Positions 12,118 to 39,223 of a DNA stretch of 64,000 bases are shown in pieces. The notes below the pieces were generated by a model. The model was not told the origin of the DNA, made no database searches, and saw nothing but the letters and a program-made list of their open reading frames with translations. This DNA comes from a virus. A program made the position numbers and the translations under genes. Location of the stretch: positions 32,001 through 96,000 of the IMG/VR virus record IMGVR_UViG_3300046665_000434, one strand, 5' to 3'. Each line of letters opens with the position of its first letter. The stretch's first letter is position 1.

Positions 12118-12780
12118 GTGGGTAAAGCAAGCCGTCTCAAGAAAGAACGTAAACAACCAGGTTACGTAGAACCGACCAAACCCGTTCAGCGGTTGGGCAA
12201 CTCGCGGCAGTCCGTGACGACTCAGTGCATGACTCCCCAAAAACAAACCACCGCCACATTCGAAACCGATCCTGAAGCCTTCGGCCCCGGTACTATCGGC
12301 TGGTGTTCTCGGGAAACGATCCAGGGCCTGATGGTCTCTACCAACGTGATCAGTATCGGGTTTGACTATCAGGTAACTCCCGCATTCCCGGTCACCCACA
12401 AACGGGTCCTGCGCGTATCGCTCCCGGTGTTGGAACGCGGTGACATTCTTGATCAAGGAGTGGCCAAAGCGATCTATGACTTCGTTATCGCCTGTGGTCA
12501 AGAGAACATCGTTGTCCACTGTGGCGAGGGTCGGATACGCTCCCCGGCGGTAGTCAACGCGATTGCCGCAGAGTTTGACCGTGTGCCTACACCTCGTCGG
12601 ATGTTTGGTGGCGGCTCTCTCAGCGATACCAACATGGACCGCGAACTGTTCTGTCAGTTGTCTGAGTATTTCGAGACCATGATCGCGATGGATGCTGACG
12701 GCATCGGCGTTGCTTCGGCCGAAACCCATGCTGCAATCGAGACCGCTCTGGACGCCGGCCAGATCATCGATAACCGTTAA
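12118..12780 (+). CDS. protein-tyrosine/dual-specificity phosphatase-like protein
   Basis: P-loop VVHCGEGRIRS (HCx5R). Confidence 0.75.
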   Translation: MGKASRLKKERKQPGYVEPTKPVQRLGNSRQSVTTQCMTPQKQTTATFETDPEAFGPGTIGWCSRETIQGLMVSTNVISIGFDYQVTPAFPVTHKRVLRVSLPVLERGDILDQGVAKAIYDFVIACGQENIVVHCGEGRIRSPAVVNAIAAEFDRVPTPRRMFGGGSLSDTNMDRELFCQLSEYFETMIAMDADGIGVASAETHAAIETALDAGQIIDNR

Positions 12781-12839
12781 ACGGCAAATACTCTGTCCCG
12801 ATAGTGGGACAGAGTAGCTAACTAACAAGAGCCTACAAC

Positions 12840-13469
12840 ATGATAATTCGTAGTCGTGCTAAACCTGTCGGCATTATCCCTCTCTGGCCAGAGTTCACAG
12901 GTATTCAAGTACAGATGATGGAGTTCAGCCCGCGCAGGCAGCAGCTGGGTAAGGACCTCTTGCCTTATAAGGACATCATCGCTGGACTGTGTAAGTACTT
13001 CGTTAGCCTCGATCAGAAATTGTTTCTGACGATCGATGAACGTGAACTGGTCCCAGGCGAAACCCATCGCCGCGCTGGCGCGCACATCGACGGTTGGTAT
13101 TTGAAGGACCCTAAAGCCGGTGAACTGACTGAAGGTTGGAGGCCAGGAGGTTATTGGGGAACTGATCGTAATCCAGGCATTACCTACGATTCGAAGTTCC
13201 CAGATGCTGGAATGTTGATCGCCAGTAACTATCCGGCCTGTGATGTCTGGACAGGTGATGTCGAAGGCGAGGTTGGTAAAGGTGGTGATTGCGAGCACCT
13301 GCGTGACCAGTTTGGTGGCATGGAGAAATTCACCATGCCCTCTGATATTGTCTACGCCACAAACGCGATGTGTATTCATGAATCGCGGCCAGTTACAAAA
13401 CCCGTGCGGCGTCAGCTTATCCGCATCACCACTTCAAACCTCCCCCATGTGAGGAATCTGTTTCTATGA
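12840..13469 (+). CDS. putative 2OG-Fe(II)/double-stranded beta-helix oxygenase-like protein
   Basis: HID ... HES ... R motif spacing. Confidence 0.5.
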   Translation: MIIRSRAKPVGIIPLWPEFTGIQVQMMEFSPRRQQLGKDLLPYKDIIAGLCKYFVSLDQKLFLTIDERELVPGETHRRAGAHIDGWYLKDPKAGELTEGWRPGGYWGTDRNPGITYDSKFPDAGMLIASNYPACDVWTGDVEGEVGKGGDCEHLRDQFGGMEKFTMPSDIVYATNAMCIHESRPVTKPVRRQLIRITTSNLPHVRNLFL

Positions 13470-33251: not shown

Positions 33252-33542
33252 ATGGGGTTGTTTAGTTTTCTCAAGGCATTGTTCTTCCCGGCGAAAGCAG
33301 ACGCGGTTGGGGCGCAGCGTATCCCTCTCGAAGCGTTCGAAGACATGAGAGTCAAGTTCGGCCTGGATTATGAGATCCATGTCGTGACGATCACCGGATC
33401 ATCAGGTTCTGTACAGCGGTTGTTCAGCAACGGCGATGTTGCCTACCGCACCAAACTTGATCGGATGGTCATCGTTCAATACCACGACATCACCGAAGTG
33501 CGGTACACGCCACCGGTCGATACCAACGGACATGCAGTATGA
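33252..33542 (+). CDS. hypothetical protein
   Basis: ORF abutting its neighbours. Confidence 0.6.
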   Translation: MGLFSFLKALFFPAKADAVGAQRIPLEAFEDMRVKFGLDYEIHVVTITGSSGSVQRLFSNGDVAYRTKLDRMVIVQYHDITEVRYTPPVDTNGHAV

Positions 33543-34057
33543 ACAAACTCTACATCTTAGGTGAGGACCACAACAGCCTTAAAGAGATAGCTCGTATCAA
33601 CGAACGTATAAAGGCTATCAAGCCTGACTACCTGTTGCACGAGCTGCTCTACACGGATCTGTGTCTGACTCGCGAAGAGATCAAACAACGGCTCGACGCT
33701 TGCTCAGAAGGCGGTATCTGTGATCCTCGCCTCAATAAGGATATCTACGAGTTGGGGTATGCTGAAAACATTCCACTTGTCGGTATCGATCTGGATCTGT
33801 CTGGTAGTGCGCGTATGACGCTGCGTAAGCAGTTTGAACTGCGCGAGAAGCAGATGGTGAAGATGATCGAACAGTACCGCACCAAGGGTACGGTAGTCGT
33901 CGTGGTAGGGGATGCTCATCTGAGGACACAATCCACAACCGAGTTAGGTCAGTCATCACCTATCCCGAGGATCTTTGCGGCCACGGCCACTATTGAACGT
34001 AGCCTTACTGCGAAGTATTCGGCAGAGGCGTCAATCCCATCCTGGCTTAAATGGTGA
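33539..34057 (+). CDS. EreA/ChaN/TraB-like fold protein
   Basis: ILGEDHN...LHE...RE..M...VVVVGDAH motif set. Confidence 0.55.
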   Translation: MNKLYILGEDHNSLKEIARINERIKAIKPDYLLHELLYTDLCLTREEIKQRLDACSEGGICDPRLNKDIYELGYAENIPLVGIDLDLSGSARMTLRKQFELREKQMVKMIEQYRTKGTVVVVVGDAHLRTQSTTELGQSSPIPRIFAATATIERSLTAKYSAEASIPSWLKW

Positions 34058-34550: not shown

Positions 34551-34627
34551 GCAGTATTAGCTCAGTTGGTTAGAGCGCAGCACTGTCACTGCTGAGGTCA
34601 CCGGTTCGAGTCCGGTATATTGCGCCA
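34551..34627 (+). tRNA. tRNA-Asp(GTC)
   Basis: cloverleaf; CAGCA-CTGTCAC-TGCTG anticodon arm; G73 and CCA. Confidence 0.95.
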
Positions 34628-34634
34628 CTTTCAT

Positions 34635-34710
34635 TCCAAGGTAGCTCAGTCGGTAGAGCAGCACGCTGTTAACGTGTTGGTCCCTGGTTCGAATCCAGGT
34701 CTTGGAGCCA
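34635..34710 (+). tRNA. tRNA-Asn(GTT)
   Basis: cloverleaf; GCACG-CTGTTAA-CGTGT; CCA. Confidence 0.95.
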
Positions 34711-34716
34711 CACAAA

Positions 34717-34792
34717 GGGTTAGTAGCTCAATTGGCAGAGCACCGGTCTCCAAAACCGGTTGTTGCAAGTTCGAGTCTTGCTTAGCCCGCCA
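34717..34792 (+). tRNA. tRNA-Trp(CCA)
   Basis: cloverleaf; CCGGT-CTCCAAA-ACCGG; CCA. Confidence 0.95.
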
Positions 34793-34798
34793 TGTTTT

Positions 34799-34885
34799 GG
34801 ATGATGTAGAGACAGATGGCTACTGTCAGCGGACTGTAACCCCGCCGCTTCATGCTAGAGGTTCAATTCCTTCCTTCATCCACCA
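34799..34885 (+). tRNA. tRNA-Tyr(GTA), atypical D arm
   Basis: GCGGA-CTGTAAC-CCCGC, long variable region, GTTCAATT T loop, ACCA. Confidence 0.8.
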
Positions 34886-34892
34886 CTTTAAT

Positions 34893-35017
34893 AGTCTTGT
34901 AGCTCACTGGTAGAGCGCGTCCTTTCGGTTCGACTCCGAACATGCCTCGGCTTCGGCCAACGGCGTGATCTGGATACACGGACGAGGTAGCAGGTTCGAT
35001 TCCTGCCTAGACTTCCT
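34893..35017 (+). tRNA. tRNA-Val(TAC)-like gene with 50-nt insert at 33/34 (34925..34974), 3' end TCCT
   Basis: AGTCTTG/CTAGACT acceptor, GCTC/GAGC D arm, CGTCC-TT[insert]TAC-AC-GGACG, GCAGG-TTCGATT-CCTGC T arm. Confidence 0.8.
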
Positions 35018-35023
35018 AGCAAT

Positions 35024-35192
35024 AACTCTGTAGCTCAGTTTGGATAGAGCGTCCTCATTTTTCCCCTAGGGGGATTGCAGGTTCAAGTCCTGTCCATTGC
35101 AAGTCCCCTAGGGGAGCCTTGGCTTTGGTGGCGGAATTGGTAGACGCGAACACGAGGAAGGTCACGGGTTCGATTCCCGTCATGAGTTACCT
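35024..35192 (+). tRNA. tRNA-Val(AAC)-like gene with 90-nt insert at 33/34 (35059..35148), 3' end ACCT
   Basis: AACTCTG/CA(T)GAGTT acceptor, TCCTC-AT[insert]AAC-AC-GAGGA, ACGGG-TTCGATT-CCCGT T arm. Confidence 0.8.
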
Positions 35193-35198
35193 GTTAAT

Positions 35199-35296
35199 GA
35201 TCCCCACTCCACTAAATCCCTCAAGGCGTTCTCTTAGGAGTTGCTGAGCGATGGTGGTGCGAGTAATAGCAAGTTAAAACCTTGTGGGGGTCACCT
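35199..35296 (+). ncRNA. degenerate tRNA-like RNA (acceptor stem plus T-arm-like hairpin, ACCT end)
   Basis: GATCCCC/GGGGGTC stem; GCAAG-TTAAAAC-CTTGT 5-bp/7-nt hairpin at the T-arm position. Confidence 0.55.
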
Positions 35297-35303
35297 TTTC
35301 AAT

Positions 35304-35380
35304 TGGGGTATAGCCAAGTTTGGTTACGGCAACGGGCTTTGATCCCGTCATCGCTGGTTCGAATCCAGCTGCCCCTTCCA
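35304..35380 (+). tRNA. tRNA-Gln(TTG)
   Basis: cloverleaf; ACGGG-CTTTGAT-CCCGT; 1-72 mismatch; CCA. Confidence 0.92.
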
Positions 35381-35385
35381 TTTAC

Positions 35386-35466
35386 GATCCTTTGCGACAC
35401 GGTTGCGGTGCCGATCCTGCGATAGTGAAGCATTAGTCCCGGCACTCGACGCCGGGAGGATCACCC
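35386..35466 (+). ncRNA. degenerate tRNA-like RNA (ACCC end)
   Basis: GATCCTT/GAGGATC closing stem; CCGGC-ACTCGAC-GCCGG hairpin at the T-arm position. Confidence 0.5.
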
Positions 35467-35475
35467 TTTCGTTAT

Positions 35476-35565
35476 ACTAGGTTCCTGCCTCGGGCAGGCC
35501 AGCTGTAGGTGACTGCGCGCAACTCCACCTCGGCTGTATGGATAATCGCCATGACCTGGTCACCC
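35476..35565 (+). ncRNA. three-hairpin tRNA-like RNA (ACCC end)
   Basis: ACTAGGTT/GACCTGGT closing stem; CCTGCC/GGCAGG, CAGCTG/CGGCTG and ATGG/CCAT arms. Confidence 0.5.
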
Positions 35566-35570
35566 TTTAT

Positions 35571-35659
35571 AGTCCTCTAGCTCAGTTGGTTCAGAGCGTC
35601 CCCCTATCTTGCTAACGACATGGGGAAGGTCGTAAGTTCGAATCTTACGAGGACTTCCT
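35571..35659 (+). tRNA. tRNA-Val(GAC)-like gene with 11-nt insert at 33/34 (35606..35616), 3' end TCCT
   Basis: AGTCCTC/GAGGACT acceptor, TCCCC-CT[ATCTTGCTAAC]GAC-AT-GGGGA, GTAAG-TTCGAAT-CTTAC T arm. Confidence 0.8.
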
Positions 35660-35665
35660 ATTTAT

Positions 35666-35810
35666 AACTCTATAGCTCAATTGGTAGAGCGCCATCATCT
35701 TTAGGTTGCGGGTTCGATTCCCGCATGATCCGCATGGATCATTAGCTCAATTGGCAGAGCAGAAGATCACGCGATGGAGGTTGCAGGTTCGAGACCTGCT
35801 AGAGTTTCCT
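35666..35810 (+). tRNA. tRNA-Val(CAC)-like gene with 69-nt insert at 33/34 (35699..35767) that is a permuted tRNA, 3' end TCCT
   Basis: AACTCTA/TAGAGTT acceptor, CCATC-AT[insert]CAC-GC-GATGG; insert has a T arm, ATGATCC/GGATCAT acceptor hairpin and D arm. Confidence 0.85.
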
Positions 35811-35950
35811 AATGCTAGACCCACCGGGAAGCGGGTAAAACGCCGAGGGGTTGAAATTGGCGTGATGGCCTAGAGGCTCATGTTGGCCCGAATGAGAGTG
35901 AGCGCATTGAAATAATCGGGCCCCCGCATCAACTACTACTACTAGACTAG

Positions 35951-36493
35951 ATGGTGATGCTAATGTTCATGTTGAAAATTATGTCCGGTGAAGACCGGCC
36001 AGATTCTGATGTCTCGAAGTCGTTCAAGGGCGTTATCCTTGGCGATGGGATGTCGTTCGAGTTCTCCCGTAAGGTAACGACTGAAACGGCTCTGCTGACA
36101 TTGACGAGCCCAGATGGCTCTCACGTCACTATGGACCTCGCCGGTAACGCTTACATCGTAAGTAACACCGGTAAGACCGTGGCGTCATTCGCTTACAGTA
36201 ACACCAAGCTCGTTGACGCTGAGGTAGCTAACAGGCCTACGTTCAGCGAGCACGAAGATCGTCGACAGCGAGCAGCTGCGAAGCCGCTCAACTCTGTCTC
36301 AGTGAGTGCTGAAGCGGAAGCACTTACCAGTGCCCGCATCCTCTGGTTGAGATTACACGAACCTAAACGCCTTGACCGGTTGCGTGTATGTCGAAGAGCG
36401 GACGGCAGTCTCGTAGTAAATGATCAGGTCGACACGGTCCGACAATTGGATCAGTGGGGTGTCCCAAACACCTACGGCGAACTACTGAATTAA
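35951..36493 (+). CDS. hypothetical protein inside the tRNA cluster
   Basis: 180 aa ORF; C-terminal domain paralogous to 40371..40685. Confidence 0.7.
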   Translation: MVMLMFMLKIMSGEDRPDSDVSKSFKGVILGDGMSFEFSRKVTTETALLTLTSPDGSHVTMDLAGNAYIVSNTGKTVASFAYSNTKLVDAEVANRPTFSEHEDRRQRAAAKPLNSVSVSAEAEALTSARILWLRLHEPKRLDRLRVCRRADGSLVVNDQVDTVRQLDQWGVPNTYGELLN

Positions 36494-36685
36494 AGAGATT
36501 TGGCTCCAAGCGGAATCGGGGGATTTCTAACTTGGGGCGTTGTCAGAACAGACGTTGGGCGCGGTTGCTTGAAAGATAGCGTGCTAGCCCATCGAGTTAT
36601 GCTTCCTCCGGCGGCGTTCTGATAACTAAGTGACGGGCTTCAATCCTAAGCAAGCCGGGGACCAAATTCTATTGGAGATAACAAC

Positions 36686-37024
36686 ATGGCGTTGGTAAAA
36701 GTACGGGTTGCGGTGACTCGCGAAAGTCTGCTGGGTCGTCTTCTGCAACTCGATCCAGAGATGGATCTCACTGACAGTATCAAGGCGGTTGAAGTTGAGG
36801 CGGTTATCGATGAAGCTGGCGTGAATCATCCCGATTGGGAATTCAACATCAGCACCATTGCTCCGTTCATCACCGGCGTTGGTACTGTCGCAGGCCATGG
36901 CAAGATCAGCTTTACAGTAAACATGCAAGATGGCGCCCTCACCATTGAGTCTACAGAGGCTGCTAAAGACCTGCTGCTGGTTCTCAAGGTTACGACCGAG
37001 AATCATAACCACCGTCCGGTCTGA
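36686..37024 (+). CDS. hypothetical protein inside the tRNA cluster
   Basis: SD GGAG, 112 aa. Confidence 0.75.
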   Translation: MALVKVRVAVTRESLLGRLLQLDPEMDLTDSIKAVEVEAVIDEAGVNHPDWEFNISTIAPFITGVGTVAGHGKISFTVNMQDGALTIESTEAAKDLLLVLKVTTENHNHRPV

Positions 37025-37036
37025 CAAGTTTTTTTT

Positions 37037-37111
37037 AGTATCGTAGCTCAGAGGTAGAGCGCGGCCCCGATAAGGCTGAGGTCCGTGGTTCGAAACCACG
37101 CGGTACTACCA
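37037..37111 (+). tRNA. tRNA-Ile(GAT) with C33
   Basis: AGTATCG/CGGTACT acceptor; CGGCC-CCGATAA-GGCTG; ACCA. Confidence 0.88.
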
Positions 37112-37334
37112 TGTGTGCTGATGCGCCGATGTCTTCGACTAGCAGCCTTTGAGCGGGTAGGTCGTGAGCATTGGCGCATTGGCGCCTCTTTTCCCCTCCG
37201 CAGGGGGAGACTTGAGACTATAGGGTATCTTGGTATCACGCCTGAGAATGTGTGCTGGCATATCCTGAAACCTCTGCTGGGAGGTGTCTTTCGTATGTAG
37301 GGGTACTCAGCTCCGGCATCCCGCGACTAATTTC

Positions 37335-38042
37335 GGATAGATAGGGAAGTGGCCAAACCCATCGGATTGACTTATTCTATGTATTTAAACATGGGATACG
37401 TCAATGAACTGCATCCACTGTCAGCGAGAATGTGTTAATTGGAATTCTCGGCGTGCACACGAGTGTCGTTGTCCGATGAATCCCAATCGGAAAGTCTTTA
37501 GCCCCAATCTAGGCAACCGACATTCTGAAGCTACTAAGGAGAGATGTAGGGCTGCCGCTCAACAGCAACATCGGCAAGGTTTAAGTGCCGGTTTCCCTAA
37601 CTGGGAAGGTAGAACTCATCGAGAAGAAAGTAAGTTAAGAATATCCCAAGCGCTGATGGGTAACAGGAATGGTAACCATCGAGGGGATCGACAGTCCTAC
37701 TATCGCGGGATCAGAATGGATTCTAGATGGGAGGTTCGTACTGCCGAGTGGTTAGATGACATGGGTTGTTATTGGAGATATTCTCCGAGGGGATTCCAGC
37801 TATCCGACGGGCGACACTACTATCCTGATTTCTTTGTCTATGATGATGAAGGTTGTTTAGATTACCTGATCGAAGTTAAAGGTTATTTTAGAGAAGGTAA
37901 TCGTTTGAAATTCGAAACGTTTAAACGAGAATATCCTGAAATAGAAATACGGTTGTGGGAGAAACCTCAACTTAAAGAATTGGGTATCCTTTAGAGTCCG
38001 GTCTCTATGAGTACGTCGGTTCGAATCCGACTCTGTCCTCCA
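37335..38042 (+). tRNA. type II tRNA (Leu-TAG-like) split in the anticodon loop by a 623-nt endonuclease-encoding insert (about 37369..37991)
   Basis: 5' half GGATAGA-TA-GGG..CCC-A-TCGGA-TT; 3' half TAG-AG-TCCGG, variable arm, GTCGG-TTCGAAT-CCGAC, TCTGTCC-T-CCA. Confidence 0.8.
37404..37994 (+). CDS. putative homing endonuclease (Zn finger, NUMOD3-like motifs, PD-(D/E)XK domain)
   Basis: CxxC..HxxxC, GRTHREESKLRIS, DSRWE...YYPDF...IEVKG; lies inside a tRNA gene. Confidence 0.85.
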   Translation: MNCIHCQRECVNWNSRRAHECRCPMNPNRKVFSPNLGNRHSEATKERCRAAAQQQHRQGLSAGFPNWEGRTHREESKLRISQALMGNRNGNHRGDRQSYYRGIRMDSRWEVRTAEWLDDMGCYWRYSPRGFQLSDGRHYYPDFFVYDDEGCLDYLIEVKGYFREGNRLKFETFKREYPEIEIRLWEKPQLKELGIL

Positions 38043-38060
38043 ATTGATGGAAAGGTAACC

Positions 38061-38489
38061 ATGTCCACTACGCCTCATGTTCGAGTTGGTGTCGCAGTCC
38101 TTATTCGGAGGGCTAACGGTAAGCTTCTCGTTGGTCGTCGTCAAGGAAGTCATGGCGCTGGTACTTGGACTGTCCCTGGTGGACATCTGGAGTTCGGTGA
38201 ATCGATCGAAGACTGTGCTCGACGTGAAGTGGCTGAAGAGACTGGCCTTACTCTGCTGAGCGTATCGGTAGGTTTTGCCGTAACCAATGATATCTTCACC
38301 GAAGTCAACAAGCACTACATCACCGTCTGGGTGGAAGCTACCGTCGGTGAGATTGACGAAGCCGAAAACCTAGAGCCTGAGAAGTGCGATGGTTGGGAAT
38401 GGTATCATGGACCAGAGGTTCCCACACCTCGATTCCTAGGTCTCCAGAACTTGATAGATCAACGTCCAGCCTACTGGAGTTATACTTGA
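38061..38489 (+). CDS. Nudix hydrolase (MutT/NUDT15-like)
   Basis: GGHLEFGESIEDCARREVAEETGL Nudix box; NLEPEKCDGWEW. Confidence 0.92.
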   Translation: MSTTPHVRVGVAVLIRRANGKLLVGRRQGSHGAGTWTVPGGHLEFGESIEDCARREVAEETGLTLLSVSVGFAVTNDIFTEVNKHYITVWVEATVGEIDEAENLEPEKCDGWEWYHGPEVPTPRFLGLQNLIDQRPAYWSYT

Positions 38490-38498
38490 TACCATATT

Positions 38499-38628
38499 TC
38501 CATGATAGCTACTCGGAAAGGCGCCGTCAATGGGTTCGACTCCCGTTACCCTTAGGGGTATGTTGCCACCCGTACGGGTGGCTTGGCATAGACGGAGATT
38601 GTAGGTTCGACCCCTGCTCATGGAACCT
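38499..38628 (+). ncRNA. tRNA-like RNA with a second T arm inserted in the anticodon loop, 3' end ACCT
   Basis: TCCATGA/TCATGGA acceptor, CCGTC/GACGG stem, inner ATGGG-TTCGACT-CCCGT, outer GTAGG-TTCGACC-CCTGC. Confidence 0.7.
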
Positions 38629-38669
38629 AATCTTCAGCACAGTAGCCTATTCACGTTAGGAGTATTTTC

Positions 38670-38819
38670 ATGAGTATCGAAAACGAAAAGATCGTAACCG
38701 AACGGAAAGCTTCCGGGCCAAATCTCTCGATGCCGAAATGGAAACCCAGTCAGAAGCTCGCTGATGAGATCGGCGATGAACTTGCGGAACTGATGGCGAA
38801 AGAAGCCTCGGCCAAGTAA
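38670..38819 (+). CDS. small hypothetical protein
   Basis: SD AGGAG; MSIENEKIVTERKASGPNLSMPKWKP... (49 aa). Confidence 0.6.
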   Translation: MSIENEKIVTERKASGPNLSMPKWKPSQKLADEIGDELAELMAKEASAK

Positions 38820-38834
38820 GCACAACTCTTTAAT

Positions 38835-38940
38835 CCCTGGTCGACCATGCGGGGTTGGGCCTATACCCACGATACGATACGATCTAGCTACACGTCCGTC
38901 GTGGTTATTTGTCGGGAGTTCGATCCTCTCACTCGGGGCT
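38835..38940 (+). pseudogene. degenerate tRNA-like element
   Basis: GGGAG-TTCGATC-CTCTC T arm followed by ACTCGGG pairing imperfectly with CCCTGGT; no clear D arm or CCA. Confidence 0.35.
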
Positions 38941-38955
38941 GTATTTGGAGTCGCT

Positions 38956-39159
38956 ATGCTTGACAACGTTGAAGAAAATGTTGAGTACAGGTCTCCATCA
39001 GGGATCAGGTTCAAGGTAACCAGTATAGCGAGACATGCTCAGGATTGTTCCTGGCCCATGATCGTATACACTAATCTCGAACCTACCAAAGACGCACCTA
39101 CCGGTACAGTCTGGGTTATCGCTGAGTCGATATTTCTGAGAACGTTTTCGCGGATATAG
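38956..39159 (+). CDS. DUF1653-like small protein
   Basis: YRSPSGIRFKV...ARH...VY...W...F pattern; SD GGAG. Confidence 0.65.
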   Translation: MLDNVEENVEYRSPSGIRFKVTSIARHAQDCSWPMIVYTNLEPTKDAPTGTVWVIAESIFLRTFSRI

Positions 39160-39223
39160 TTTAATGGTAGAGCCTCAGCCTTCCAAGCTGTTGACCCGAG
39201 TTCGATTCTCGGTATCCGCTCCA
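39150..39223 (+). tRNA. tRNA-Gly(TCC)
   Basis: GCGGATA/TATCCGC acceptor; CAGC-CTTCCAA-GCTG; TCCA. Confidence 0.95.

What the first reader, a model, noticed from the sequence alone, without database searches (positions are those of the whole stretch)
35024..35192. Val(AAC)-like gene carries a permuted type II (Leu-like) tRNA as its insert
Seen: the insert order is a CCCCTAGGGG hairpin (variable-arm position), GCAGG-TTCAAGT-CCTGT (T arm), CCATTGC, a linker with a second TCCCCTAGGGGA palindrome, GCTTTGG (5 of 7 pairs with CCATTGC), then TG-GCG-GAATTGGTAGA-CGC-G. Established: that last segment is the typical D arm of bacterial tRNA-Leu. The inner module therefore differs in origin from the type I module in the Val(CAC) gene. 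Inference: the nested permuted architecture arose at least twice from different donor tRNAs, so the shape matters more than the sequence. The duplicated palindrome could support an alternative fold or dimerisation.
Basis: partly seen in the sequence, partly recalled or inferred. Interest (0 to 1): 0.78.

Follow-up and report, generated by a model that had tools for sequence, protein, structure and literature searches.

The report
Two-headed valine/leucine phage tRNA mimic
In the tRNA gene cluster of an uncultured giant phage, a 169-base RNA gene has a back-to-front leucine-type tRNA body with no anticodon arm in place of the anticodon loop of a valine-type tRNA. Four related phages keep this design through matching mutations, so it is a real tRNA look-alike that I found in no paper or RNA library searched, but this phage's own copy carries an extra palindrome that may spoil its fold.

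Summary

The element is one copy of a conserved RNA family. I found four other distinct versions, on nine contigs of related phiKZ-like phages. All share:
- a Val-type outer tRNA body;
- one invariant 5-bp bridge helix (TCCTC/GAGGA);
- an inner T arm, a loop-closed inner acceptor stem and an invariant Leu-type D arm.

A covariance model built without this copy finds it full length (112 bits, E about 7e-28). Ten base pairs show double-sided changes, six of them in the inner acceptor stem.

It is not a decoder. Across about 20 insert-bearing genes in five arrays only N-A-C (positions 34-36) is kept. C33 and pyrimidine-37 are common, and all end N-CCT where the normal tRNAs end N-CCA.

The "duplicated palindrome" is specific to this lineage. 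The homologues have a 7-nt loop there. ViennaRNA puts the palindrome-palindrome helix 11 kcal/mol ahead of the tRNA-like fold here, whereas two homologues fold two-headed as their minimum.

"Two independent origins" is plausible but unproven. Free-standing Leu-type modules in other phages offer a capture route.

This scan had already noted type-I two-headed tRNA mimics elsewhere, including in this same array.

The parts
35024..35030 (+). Outer acceptor stem, 5' strand (AACTCTG, A1)
   Evidence: Pairs with 35182-88. It is 5/7 in register here and 7/7 in the homologues, with a C-G to U-A compensatory change in L124.
35033..35050 (+). Outer D arm (GCTC, 10-nt loop with GG, GAGC)
   Evidence: The stem is kept in all five versions; loop length varies from 7 to 10 nt.
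35052..35056 (+). Bridge helix, 5' strand (TCCTC). It is the outer anticodon stem and the only helix between the two tRNA cores.
   Evidence: Invariant TCCTC/GAGGA in all five versions.
35057..35062 (+). 5' linker ATTTTT (outer positions 32-33 plus the connector to the inner variable arm)
   Evidence: Variable in the homologues (AC.., GT..). Position 33 is C in two of the four types.
35063..35072 (+). Palindrome 1, CCCCTAGGGG, the inner variable-arm hairpin
   Evidence: The homologues have other self-complementary hairpins at this place (GCCC-TAC-GGGC; TCCT-GAAA-AGGA) or none. Its centre varies in near relatives: CTAG, CTAA, TTAA.
35077..35093 (+). Inner T arm (GCAGG TTCAAGT CCTGT)
   Evidence: Kept in all versions. 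The closing pair is G.U, A-U or G-C. It becomes G-C in the 91%-identical relative.
35094..35100 (+). Inner acceptor stem, 3' strand (CCATTGC)
   Evidence: 5/7 pairs with 35122-28. The homologues have two unrelated 7/7 stems. The pair 35094:35128 changes from C-G to U-A in the near relative.
35101..35121 (+). Loop closing the inner acceptor stem, 21 nt, with palindrome 2 at 35105-14
   Evidence: The homologues have 7-nt loops with no palindrome. 35094-35115 resembles an inverted copy of 35062-35081 (read from the sequence; folds).
35122..35128 (+). Inner acceptor stem, 5' strand (GCTTTGG)
35129..35148 (+). Inner U8-G9, Leu-type D arm (GCG GAATTGGTAGA CGC) and position 26
   Evidence: The first 19 nt (35129-47, TG to CGC) are invariant in all five versions; position 26 (35148) is G here and A in the homologues. 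35127-48 is identical to E. coli tRNA-Leu genes.
35149..35153 (+). AACAC, remnant of outer anticodon-loop positions 34-38; AAC is invariant in this class
   Evidence: The four homologue types read AAC+TA, AAC+AT, AAC+GT and AAC+GT. N-A-C holds in about 20 insert-bearing genes of five arrays.
35154..35158 (+). Bridge helix, 3' strand (GAGGA)
35159..35180 (+). Outer variable region AGGTC and outer T arm (ACGGG TTCGATT CCCGT)
   Evidence: The T stem covaries among versions: ACGGG/CCCGT, GCAGG/CCTGC, GGGGG/CCCTC.
35181..35192 (+). Extra C, outer acceptor 3' strand ATGAGTT, discriminator A, then CCT (not CCA)
   Evidence: The extra nucleotide is present in 4 of 5 versions; A73 and CCT in all five. 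Normal tRNAs of the same arrays end N-CCA.

Best explanation
35024-35192 is this phage's copy of a conserved, non-decoding "two-headed" tRNA mimic, most likely transcribed with the tRNA array.

Anatomy (shown):
- A Val-type tRNA body: A1-U72 acceptor stem, D arm, T arm, A73.
- Its anticodon loop is opened between positions 33 and 34.
- In that gap sits a Leu-type tRNA body in permuted order: variable-arm hairpin, T arm, acceptor stem closed by a loop, D arm.
- The inner body has no anticodon arm, so the single 5-bp helix TCCTC/GAGGA joins the two tRNA cores. A few single-stranded bases, including an invariant AAC, lie at the junction.

Mechanism (inferred): the RNA offers host tRNA-binding proteins two tRNA elbows plus one free acceptor end.
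- The kept A35-C36 and A73 are the main valine identity elements. ValRS is therefore the most likely partner of the outer head, either binding only or charging after the CCU end is repaired to CCA.
- The invariant inner D arm, U48 and T loop are the hinge elements that LeuRS reads on tRNA-Leu without its anticodon arm.
- The RNA would act as a decoy, sponge or tether for such enzymes, or for tRNA-directed defence nucleases. It would not act as an adaptor on the ribosome.

This particular copy is derived. It has a palindromic insertion in the inner acceptor loop, two U.U mismatches in the inner stem and two mismatches in the outer stem. These are predicted to favour a long hairpin over the inner T arm and acceptor stem, so it may work poorly or differently.
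For: Family and fold:
- Homologues are at L124:12716-12868, L125:7525-7674 (identical in L128, L130, L132), L126:193-337 and L127:5730-5874 (identical in L129, L131).
- Model R1, built without the window copy, scores it 111.9 bits, E 6.7e-28, full length. Tandem normal tRNAs score about 60 bits.
- 96% of cells are paired. Ten pairs change on both sides, against 3.7 +/- 1.3 in shuffles (0 of 500 reach it) and 0-2 in slid controls. Six of the seven inner acceptor pairs covary.
- The unconstrained minimum-energy folds of L124 and L125 are exactly the two-headed fold.
- Rejoined inner halves, with the shared helix and an added 7-nt loop, are called a tRNA by ARAGORN in all five versions.
- In a 91%-identical relative the inner acceptor pair 35094:35128 changes from C-G to U-A, and the inner T-stem G.U becomes G-C.

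Not a decoder:
- N-A-C is kept in about 20 insert-bearing genes, while C33 and pyrimidine-37 are frequent. All end N-CCT, and the normal tRNAs end N-CCA.
- No canonical tRNA-Val was called by ARAGORN in any of the five array stretches scanned.

Identity elements:
- Valine: A35, C36, A73, G45. TYMV TLS-Val keeps A35/C36 with a variable discriminator.
- Leucine: E. coli tRNA-Leu without its anticodon and variable arms is still leucylated, and depends on A15-U48, G18G19, A20a and the D/T loop contacts (PMC9976931).
- The 19-nt inner D arm is invariant, while the outer D loops vary.
Against: - No expression, processing, charging or binding data exist.
- Only five distinct sequences are available, two of them nearly identical, and the alignment used for pair counts was fitted to the model.
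- In this copy ViennaRNA puts the two-headed helices 10.9 kcal/mol above the ensemble (P about 2e-8), because the two palindromes pair with each other.
- ARAGORN does not call this copy, either as it stands with introns allowed or after a natural circular permutation.
- G20, a minor valine element, is absent.
- The 3' end is CCU, so charging would need trimming and CCA repair. No CCA-adding enzyme gene was found in the 154-kb fragment.
- The inner "discriminator" is A, U or G and has no free end, so LeuRS could at most bind it.
- No Ro60, RtcB, RNA ligase or class I synthetase gene was found in the record, so no partner is indicated by gene context.
Confidence: 0.6

Rival explanations
1. The family is real, but this window's copy is a decaying or already inactive member (pseudogene). 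An inverted duplication of the variable arm and 5' T-stem segment overwrote the inner acceptor loop. Both acceptor stems have picked up mismatches, and the RNA now misfolds into a long hairpin.
For: - The second palindrome and the 21-nt loop occur only in this lineage.
- 35094-35115 is almost the reverse complement of 35062-35081 (read from the sequence; the minimum-energy fold pairs them).
- The inner stem is 5/7, which unrelated 7-mers reach in roughly 7% of cases by my estimate. The outer stem is 5/7, against 7/7 in all homologues.
- Its R1 score of 112 bits compares with 165-180 for the homologues.
- The tRNA-like fold is disfavoured by 10.9 kcal/mol.
- ARAGORN fails on it.
Against: - The 91%-identical relative shows no listed change in the second palindrome (the table is truncated). 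It shows a compensatory U-A at the inner acceptor pair 35094:35128 and a repaired T-stem pair. This is what purifying selection on the tRNA-like fold would give.
- Its two changes in palindrome 1 weaken the competing helix: the penalty drops to 4.8 kcal/mol.
- The inner D arm, bridge helix, AAC, A73 and CCT are all intact.
- Tertiary contacts and co-transcriptional folding are not in the energy model.
Confidence: 0.22
2. It is an intron-bearing tRNA-Val(AAC) gene. The 91-nt insert is removed at position 33/34 by an unknown endonuclease and ligase, or by self-cleavage, leaving a working valine tRNA.
For: - Joining the first 2 and last 5 loop bases gives a 7-nt loop with a Val anticodon in this and the sister genes.
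- ARAGORN called no uninterrupted tRNA-Val in any of the five array stretches scanned.
Against: - After such a join, position 33 is C in two of four class-B types. Position 37 is a pyrimidine in about 8 of 18 family members, whereas every normal tRNA of the same arrays has U33 and a purine at 37.
- A34 in a bacterial Val tRNA would need deamination; bacterial TadA acts on tRNA-Arg(ACG) (my own knowledge).
- Four wobble variants including AAC are more than a phage would need for decoding.
- The insert is far too short for a group I intron, and no self-splicing or self-cleaving RNA family reached even the permissive E-value threshold in Rfam. The junction is not a bulge-helix-bulge.
- No RtcB or RNA ligase gene was found in the record.
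- The insert itself is under structural selection, which is unlike a spacer that is discarded.
Confidence: 0.07
3. One reading: the two palindromes are functional and let the RNA switch to an alternative fold or form dimers.
For: - The palindrome occurs only twice in 154 kb, 42 nt apart.
- The palindrome-palindrome helix dominates the predicted ensemble.
- In near relatives palindrome 1 reads CCCCTAAGGG (X3) and CCCTTAAGGG (X1). This is a two-step path that restores self-complementarity at two positions which cannot pair within one hairpin. It would fit pairing between two molecules, or a palindrome read at the DNA level.
Against: - None of the four homologues has the second palindrome. Their variable-arm hairpins are not palindromic through the loop, and two have none. 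The feature is therefore not part of what the family conserves.
- In X1 and X3 the changes in copy 1 are not matched in copy 2 as far as the table shows. That weakens copy1-copy2 pairing and argues against selection for that helix.
- The self-complementarity evidence is a single event.
Confidence: 0.1

Closest known systems
YrlA, the tRNA-like Y RNA of bacteria and mycobacteriophages (Rfam RF02553; Chen et al. 2014, PMC4201824)
   Same: Its tRNA-like domain has the same permuted order as the insert here: variable arm, T arm, loop-closed acceptor-like stem, D arm. It is a non-decoding tRNA mimic, and M. smegmatis YrlA is cut by RNase P and receives CCA.
   Different: [quoted passage not shown] Here the ends form a complete second tRNA body.
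- No TROVE (Ro60) gene is in the record.
- The Rfam model gives nothing on this insert. Its only hit touching this gene (24.1 bits, 34986-35050) spans the E1 T arm and this gene's outer D arm, not the insert.
- The D arm here is Leu-type, and there is no inner anticodon-like stem.
Type-I two-headed Val-type tRNA mimic in the same array (35666-35810) and its orthologues; known only from earlier notes of this scan, found in no paper searched
   Same: - Same outer body type: A1-U72, NAC, N-CCT.
- Same insertion point and the same T, closed acceptor, D order.
- It co-occurs with this class in four of the five arrays.
   Different: - The insert there is a type-I tRNA with a 5-nt variable region and its own 5-6-bp anticodon-like stem stacked on the outer stem.
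- Here the insert is Leu-type, with or without a variable-arm hairpin, and has no stem of its own. One helix bridges both cores.
- The discriminator is A here, and U or C there.
Valylatable tRNA-like structure of turnip yellow mosaic virus (TLS-Val)
   Same: It is a viral, non-decoding RNA that keeps the valine identity bases A35 and C36. Its discriminator is not strictly conserved (A or C), as in this phage family (PMC9976931).
   Different: It is the 3' end of a plant RNA virus genome, with a pseudoknotted acceptor stem, a normal anticodon-like loop and a CC(A) end. It is one tRNA shape, not two. Charging is shown for TYMV and untested here.
Circularly permuted tRNA genes (Cyanidioschyzon merolae, some archaea) and split tRNAs
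   Same: The 3' half is encoded upstream of the 5' half, and the acceptor ends are joined by a short linker.
   Different: Those genes keep an anticodon arm, are processed through a circular intermediate at a bulge-helix-bulge, and become normal decoding tRNAs. The insert here has no anticodon arm and no such motif. This comparison rests on my own knowledge and on reviews listed, which I did not read.
Minimal tRNA-Leu lacking anticodon and variable arms (laboratory substrates of E. coli LeuRS)
   Same: The parts kept invariant in the insert (A15-U48, G18G19, A20a region, D/T loop contacts) are the ones LeuRS needs. The parts that are missing or variable here (anticodon arm, variable arm) are dispensable for leucylation (PMC9976931).
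   Different: Those substrates have a free A73-CCA end. Here the inner acceptor stem is closed by a loop, and the base after it is A, U or G.

Membership tests
Class-B two-headed tRNA mimic (Val-type outer body, Leu-type inner body; defined here from four homologues) | Full-length match to a covariance model built from the other members | tested here: met
   R1 gives 111.9 bits, E 6.7e-28, model positions 1-153. This is lower than the homologues (165-180 bits) and only slightly above the type-I class (84-103 bits).
Class-B two-headed tRNA mimic | Invariant bridge helix TCCTC/GAGGA, AAC just 5' of GAGGA, discriminator A, and a CCT end | tested here: met
   All are present at 35052-56, 35149-58 and 35189-92.
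Class-B two-headed tRNA mimic | Inner acceptor stem of 7 pairs closed by a 7-nt loop | tested here: not met
   This copy has 5/7 pairs and a 21-nt loop with a second palindrome. The predicted ensemble prefers another fold.
Class-B two-headed tRNA mimic | Invariant Leu-type D arm, U48 and inner T arm | tested here: met
   35129-47 is identical in all five versions, TT precedes the T stem, and the T arm is 5 bp.
Canonical or intron-bearing tRNA-Val (Rfam RF00005) | Cloverleaf scoring above the gathering threshold, and a 7-nt anticodon loop with U33 and a purine at 37 | tested here: not met
   The best RF00005 hit is 27.9 bits, below 29, and is chimeric (inner D arm with outer T arm). ARAGORN finds nothing, with or without introns allowed. 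In the class, C33 and pyrimidine-37 occur.
Canonical or intron-bearing tRNA-Val | A known intron type (group I, or bulge-helix-bulge) in the insert | tested here: not met
   No intron or ribozyme family appears in Rfam at the gathering or the E-value threshold. The insert is 91 nt, and the junction is a plain helix with single-stranded linkers.
YrlA / bacterial Y RNA (RF02553) | Match to the family model at its gathering score (69 bits) | tested here: not met
   There is no YrlA hit on the insert. The 24.1-bit hit at 34986-35050 spans two adjacent genes.
YrlA / bacterial Y RNA (RF02553) | Ro60 (TROVE) gene nearby and a Ro-binding terminal stem | tested here: not met
   No PF05731 match is in the 154-kb record, which is about 62% complete. 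The termini form a tRNA acceptor stem instead.
YrlA / bacterial Y RNA (RF02553) | tRNA-like domain in the order variable arm, T arm, closed acceptor stem, D arm | tested here: met
   The order is read from the sequence and kept in the homologues. It is described for YrlA in PMC4201824.
Permuted tRNA genes (C. merolae type) | A complete tRNA, including the anticodon arm, after rejoining | tested here: not met
   The insert has no anticodon stem-loop. ARAGORN accepts the rejoined halves only when the shared outer helix and an added 7-nt loop are supplied.
Valylatable viral tRNA-like structures | Aminoacylation by ValRS | not testable with these tools
   Only the identity bases can be read: A35, C36, A73 and G45 are present, and G20 is absent.

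The most novel reading that the evidence does not exclude
Giant phages carry a modular family of two-headed tRNA mimics. A chargeable or synthetase-binding valine-type head (A35-C36, free acceptor end) is fused through its opened anticodon loop to interchangeable second heads. Here the second head is a leucine-type body reduced to exactly the elements LeuRS reads. The RNA would engage two host tRNA-handling proteins at once, for example ValRS and LeuRS, or a synthetase and a tRNA-directed defence nuclease, to rewire or protect translation during infection.
Probability: 0.3. Interest if true: 0.85.

Novelty: new variant of a known kind. Interest (0 to 1): 0.7.

Why it matters
tRNA mimicry is a recurring viral strategy, but I know of no described RNA built as two tRNA bodies joined through one helix.

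This class shows that the second body can be swapped: type I in one gene, Leu type in the next. Meanwhile the outer valine signature (N-A-C, acceptor end) stays fixed. That points to a defined molecular target and not to junk in a tRNA array.

It gives a testable handle on three questions:
- why jumbo-phage tRNA clusters are full of "broken" tRNA genes that annotation pipelines skip or call pseudogenes;
- whether phages target ValRS or LeuRS, or tRNA-cleaving defences, with RNA decoys;
- how tRNA genes recombine at the anticodon loop.

The window copy, with its recent palindromic insertion, is also a natural mutant for asking how much of the inner fold is needed.

Tried and rejected
Searches that found nothing useful:
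- blastn of the element and the array against 50,697 GenBank phages gave only generic tRNA hits.
- My first DNA pattern was too strict.
- Single-protein locus searches with the helicase and the ORF at 35951 found nothing. A call with wrong coordinates failed.
- Contigs carrying homologues of the upstream ORF (L120-L123, L133, L134) have no such array next to it. One place came back without DNA.
- The class-B pattern gave 0 hits in 185,579 bacterial and archaeal genomes. It gave only already-known contigs in JGI metagenomes.
- R1 found no class-B member in the tRNA regions of the cultured phages BcepSaruman, Xoo-sp13 and RVTF4.
- R1 hits of about 60 bits in L036 and L049 are tandem normal tRNAs.

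Attempts to fetch the 91% relative's contig failed:
- The ORF at 35951 has no homologue in the protein collection.
- Seven neighbouring proteins are singletons in their 90% clusters; three other sequences queried are not in the collection.

Sequencing runs: no RNA holder is listed. Only contigs were laid, so nothing can be said about expression, RNA ends or processing.

Gene searches in the record: Ro60/TROVE, RtcB, CCA-adding enzyme, class I aaRS and RNA ligase all gave no match in the 154-kb fragment, which is about 62% complete. This is not proof of absence.

Sigma-70 promoter and terminator scan around the element: nothing above the shuffled expectation.

Literature: searches for permuted, nested or two-headed phage tRNAs and phage tRNA mimics found no description.

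Ideas considered and rejected:
- A protein-coding reading: no ORF spans the element.
- A chance juxtaposition of two tandem tRNAs: the halves pair only in the nested arrangement.
Full report
**Setting.** The window is bases 32001-96000 of a 154-kb IMG/VR virus record, estimated about 62% complete. Its helicase is about 40% identical to those of cultured phiKZ-like jumbo phages of Xanthomonas, Pseudomonas, Burkholderia and Erwinia.

A tRNA array runs on the + strand from 34551 to 39223. ARAGORN and Rfam call six ordinary tRNAs (Asp, Asn, Trp, Gln, Ile, Gly), all ending N-CCA. Between them lie tRNA-like genes with oversized anticodon loops:
- E1, 34893-35017
- E2, 35024-35192, the finding
- E3, 35571-35659
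- E4, 35666-35810
- E5, 38499-38628

**The observation.**
- The 10-mer CCCCTAGGGG occurs only twice in the whole record, both times inside this element.
- 35127-35148 is 22/22 identical to annotated tRNA-Leu genes in all 5426 complete E. coli genomes. The statement about the Leu D arm therefore holds.
The inner D arm runs through G-AACAC straight into GAGGA. TCCTC runs through ATTTTT into the variable-arm hairpin. One 5-bp helix therefore connects two tRNA cores.

**Homologues.**
- A homologue of the upstream ORF led to a Logan contig (L124) with a similar array and a clear counterpart at 12716-12868.
- A pattern taken from the two copies found six IMG/VR contigs and one further metagenome contig.
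- That gives four distinct versions besides the window's.
- The pattern has no match in the bacterial and archaeal genome collection.
- The family was not seen in the tRNA regions of three cultured relatives.

**What is conserved.**
- Invariant in all five:
  - the outer D stem (with one G-C to G.U change);
  - the bridge helix TCCTC/GAGGA;
  - 19 nt of the inner U8-G9 and D arm;
  - TT before the inner T stem;
  - AAC two bases before GAGGA;
  - discriminator A;
  - CCT.
- Changing with compensation:
  - the inner acceptor stem: three unrelated sequences, 7/7, 7/7 and, in the window, 5/7;
  - the outer T stem;
  - outer acceptor pair 5:68;
  - the closing pair of the inner T stem;
  - the variable-arm hairpin: three different self-complementary versions, and absent in L126 and L127.

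**Tests of the fold.**
- A covariance model was built from the four homologues alone, using the hand-drawn two-headed structure.
  - It finds the window element full length at 111.9 bits, E 6.7e-28.
  - The homologues score 165-180 bits and the type-I class 84-103.
  - Tandem ordinary tRNAs score about 60.
- On the model-fitted alignment 96% of cells pair. Ten pairs change on both sides, against 3.7 +/- 1.3 in shuffles (0 of 500) and 0-2 when partners are slid. Six of the seven inner acceptor pairs covary.
- This rests on five sequences and a fitted alignment, so it is indicative only. But the unconstrained minimum-energy folds of L124 and L125 are exactly this structure.

- I rejoined the inner halves in normal order over the shared helix with an added 7-nt loop. 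ARAGORN then calls a tRNA in all five versions. The isotype it prints merely reflects the loop I added.
- A pure circular permutation with no added letters is called, with the outer body as "intron", in the four homologues but not in the window copy.
- tRNAscan isotype models were not available.

**This copy is the odd one out.**
- The homologues close the inner acceptor stem with a 7-nt loop. The window has 21 nt containing a second copy of the variable-arm palindrome.
- 35094-35115 reads almost as the reverse complement of 35062-35081.
- ViennaRNA's minimum (-63.9 kcal/mol) pairs these segments into a long hairpin. That consumes the inner T stem and the acceptor strand.
- The two-headed helices cost 10.9 kcal/mol relative to the ensemble (P about 2e-8), against P about 0.3 in L124 and L125.
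- Both acceptor stems have two mismatches that the homologues lack.
- This fits a recent inverted duplication and some decay.

**Evidence against decay, from a close relative.** Contigs of a public run hold a 91%-identical relative. Within the element the listed differences are:
- loss of one D-loop A (35044);
- 35066 C>T and 35069 G>A, both in the centre of palindrome 1;
- 35093 T>C, which turns the inner T-stem G.U into G-C;
- 35094 C>T with 35128 G>A, which turns an inner acceptor C-G into U-A (a compensatory pair);
- 35148 G>A, matching the A found in all homologues.

No change is listed in palindrome 2, but the table is truncated. With these changes the penalty for the two-headed fold drops to 4.8 kcal/mol. 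Selection for the tRNA-like fold therefore seems to persist in this lineage. I cannot tell which state is ancestral.

The palindrome-1 series CTAG (window), CTAA (X3) and TTAA (X1) restores self-complementarity at two bases that cannot pair within one hairpin. This is a single event.

**Not a decoder.** I parsed all tRNA-like genes in five arrays.
- About 20 have oversized loops.
- In all of them but E5 and one doubtful parse, the five bases before the 3' anticodon-stem strand read N-A-C-N-N.
- Position 33 is often C, and position 37 is a pyrimidine in roughly 8 of 18.
- All end N-CCT, except the type-I gene of L124 at 12476, which ends CCCA.
- The 13 ordinary tRNAs parsed in the same arrays all have U33 or C33, as expected for their type, followed by a purine at 37 and N-CCA.
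- ARAGORN called no uninterrupted tRNA-Val in any of the array stretches scanned.
- The inserts fall into classes, each with orthologues in several phages:
  - a full type-I permuted tRNA;
  - the Leu-type body;
  - a T-arm-like hairpin plus a long hairpin;
  - short inserts.
- What is kept is A35-C36 and an acceptor end, not an anticodon loop.

**Mechanism.**
- According to the identity review PMC9976931:
  - A35, C36 and A73, with G45 and G20 as minor elements, specify valine.
  - The valylatable TYMV tRNA-like structure keeps A35/C36 with a variable discriminator.
  - E. coli tRNA-Leu stripped of its anticodon and variable arms is still leucylated. Recognition rests on A73, A15-U48, G18G19, A20a and the D/T loop contacts.
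- The class-B RNA keeps A35, C36, A73 and G45 on the outer body. On the inner body it keeps exactly the Leu hinge set. It lacks the inner anticodon arm, and the variable arm is dispensable.
- My best reading is therefore a two-elbow tRNA mimic.
  - Its outer head addresses ValRS. Charging would need CCU-to-CCA repair by host enzymes.
  - Its inner head presents a Leu-type elbow without a free end.
  - It would act as a decoy, sponge or tether.
- The architecture and its conservation are shown. The partners and the effect are inferred.
- I found no Ro60, RtcB, RNA ligase, CCA-adding enzyme or class I synthetase gene in the fragment.

**Origin.**
- The inner modules of E2 and E4 are different tRNA types, and each is conserved in its own class.
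- Whether the nested design arose twice is open.
- Unrelated phage tRNA arrays contain free-standing permuted Leu-type modules. These have a T arm, a 7-bp stem with a 6- or 7-nt loop and the same D arm, closed by a terminal stem next to an ACAGCAA motif (L044, L023, L020, L034). Rfam's YrlA model does not detect them.
- Other phages carry unpermuted Leu-type bodies of about 72 nt without an anticodon arm, some ending A-CCA (L143, L140, L142, L138).
- A ready-made module could therefore have been captured into, or released from, a Val-type gene. Alternatively, one nested ancestor could have had its insert exchanged.
- In this phage the outer acceptor stems of E2 and E4 are nearly the same (AACTCTG and AACTCTA), unlike in the relatives. 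That hints at gene conversion between the two.

**Comparison and novelty.**
- The nearest described RNA is YrlA (PMC4201824). Its tRNA-like domain has the same permuted order, but it has a Ro-binding stem where this RNA has a second tRNA, and it fails the model and context tests here.
- Searches of 8.4 million papers and preprints found no description of nested or two-headed phage tRNAs.
- Earlier notes of this scan describe type-I two-headed mimics in this and at least 14 other genomes, and one twin-Leu form. I used them as leads only. The class described here (Val outside, anticodon-arm-less Leu inside) was worked out independently.
- I rate it a new variant of a known kind (tRNA mimics). 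Interest is high for the family and tempered for this copy, which may be impaired.

Noticed in passing
L143:11525-11597(+), L140:11673-11747(-), L142:4900-4971(-), L138:911-985(-): Free-standing Leu-type tRNA bodies of about 72 nt in unrelated viral contigs. They have a 7-bp acceptor stem, the Leu D arm and a T arm, but only a 17-19-nt connector in place of the anticodon and variable arms. L143 ends A-CCA and L142 ends C-CCA. They look like natural versions of the minimal LeuRS substrates made in the laboratory.
   Followed up: partly
L044:4979-5123, L023:6906-7049, L020:8779-8927, L034:5223-5380: Free-standing permuted Leu-type modules inside phage tRNA arrays. They have a T arm, a 7-bp stem with a 6- or 7-nt loop (or a long A-rich one in L034), and the Leu D arm. 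A terminal stem encloses the module, followed by a shared ACAGCAA motif. The layout is YrlA-like, but Rfam's YrlA model does not detect them at E <= 0.01.
   Followed up: partly
window 35193-35303, 35381-35480, 35476-35570: The three spacers between E2, tRNA-Gln and E3 each fold as a multi-branch RNA. Each is closed by a stem ending in GGUCACC or GAUCACC, followed by C/U-UUU (z-scores -2.9, -2.6, -1.8). L124:11690-11790 has a similar ACGATCCTTT...GGATCACC element. They may be further small RNAs or processing signals.
   Followed up: partly
window 34893-38628 and the arrays in L124-L127: All but one of the insert-bearing tRNA-like genes end N-CCT, while all ordinary tRNAs end N-CCA; the type-I gene of L124 at 12476-12623 ends CCCA. 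All but E5 and one doubtful parse keep N-A-C at positions 34-36. Discriminators are A, C or U.
   Followed up: yes
window 35181; L125, L126 and L127 homologues: Four of the five class-B versions have one extra nucleotide (C) between the outer T stem and the acceptor 3' strand. The L124 version lacks it. The L125 outer T stem also pairs poorly in the standard register.
   Followed up: no
window 34799-34885: A type-II Tyr(GUA)-like tRNA ending A-CCA is missed by ARAGORN and by Rfam's tRNA model. Its only hit is tRNA-Sec at 23.5 bits. The counterpart in L124 (12108-12189) is called tRNA-Tyr.
   Followed up: no
window 35666-35672/35801-35807 compared with 35024-35030/35182-35188: In this phage the outer acceptor stem of the type-I gene E4 (AACTCTA/TAGAGTT) is almost identical to the class-B consensus (AACTCTG/CAGAGTT). 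Its orthologues in L124-L127 have other stems. This may reflect gene conversion between the two nested genes.
   Followed up: no
L122 and L123, 10717-10803: In closer relatives that lack the big array at this site, a single tRNA-like gene with a 10-nt surplus in its anticodon loop follows the homologue of ORF 33539-34057.
   Followed up: no
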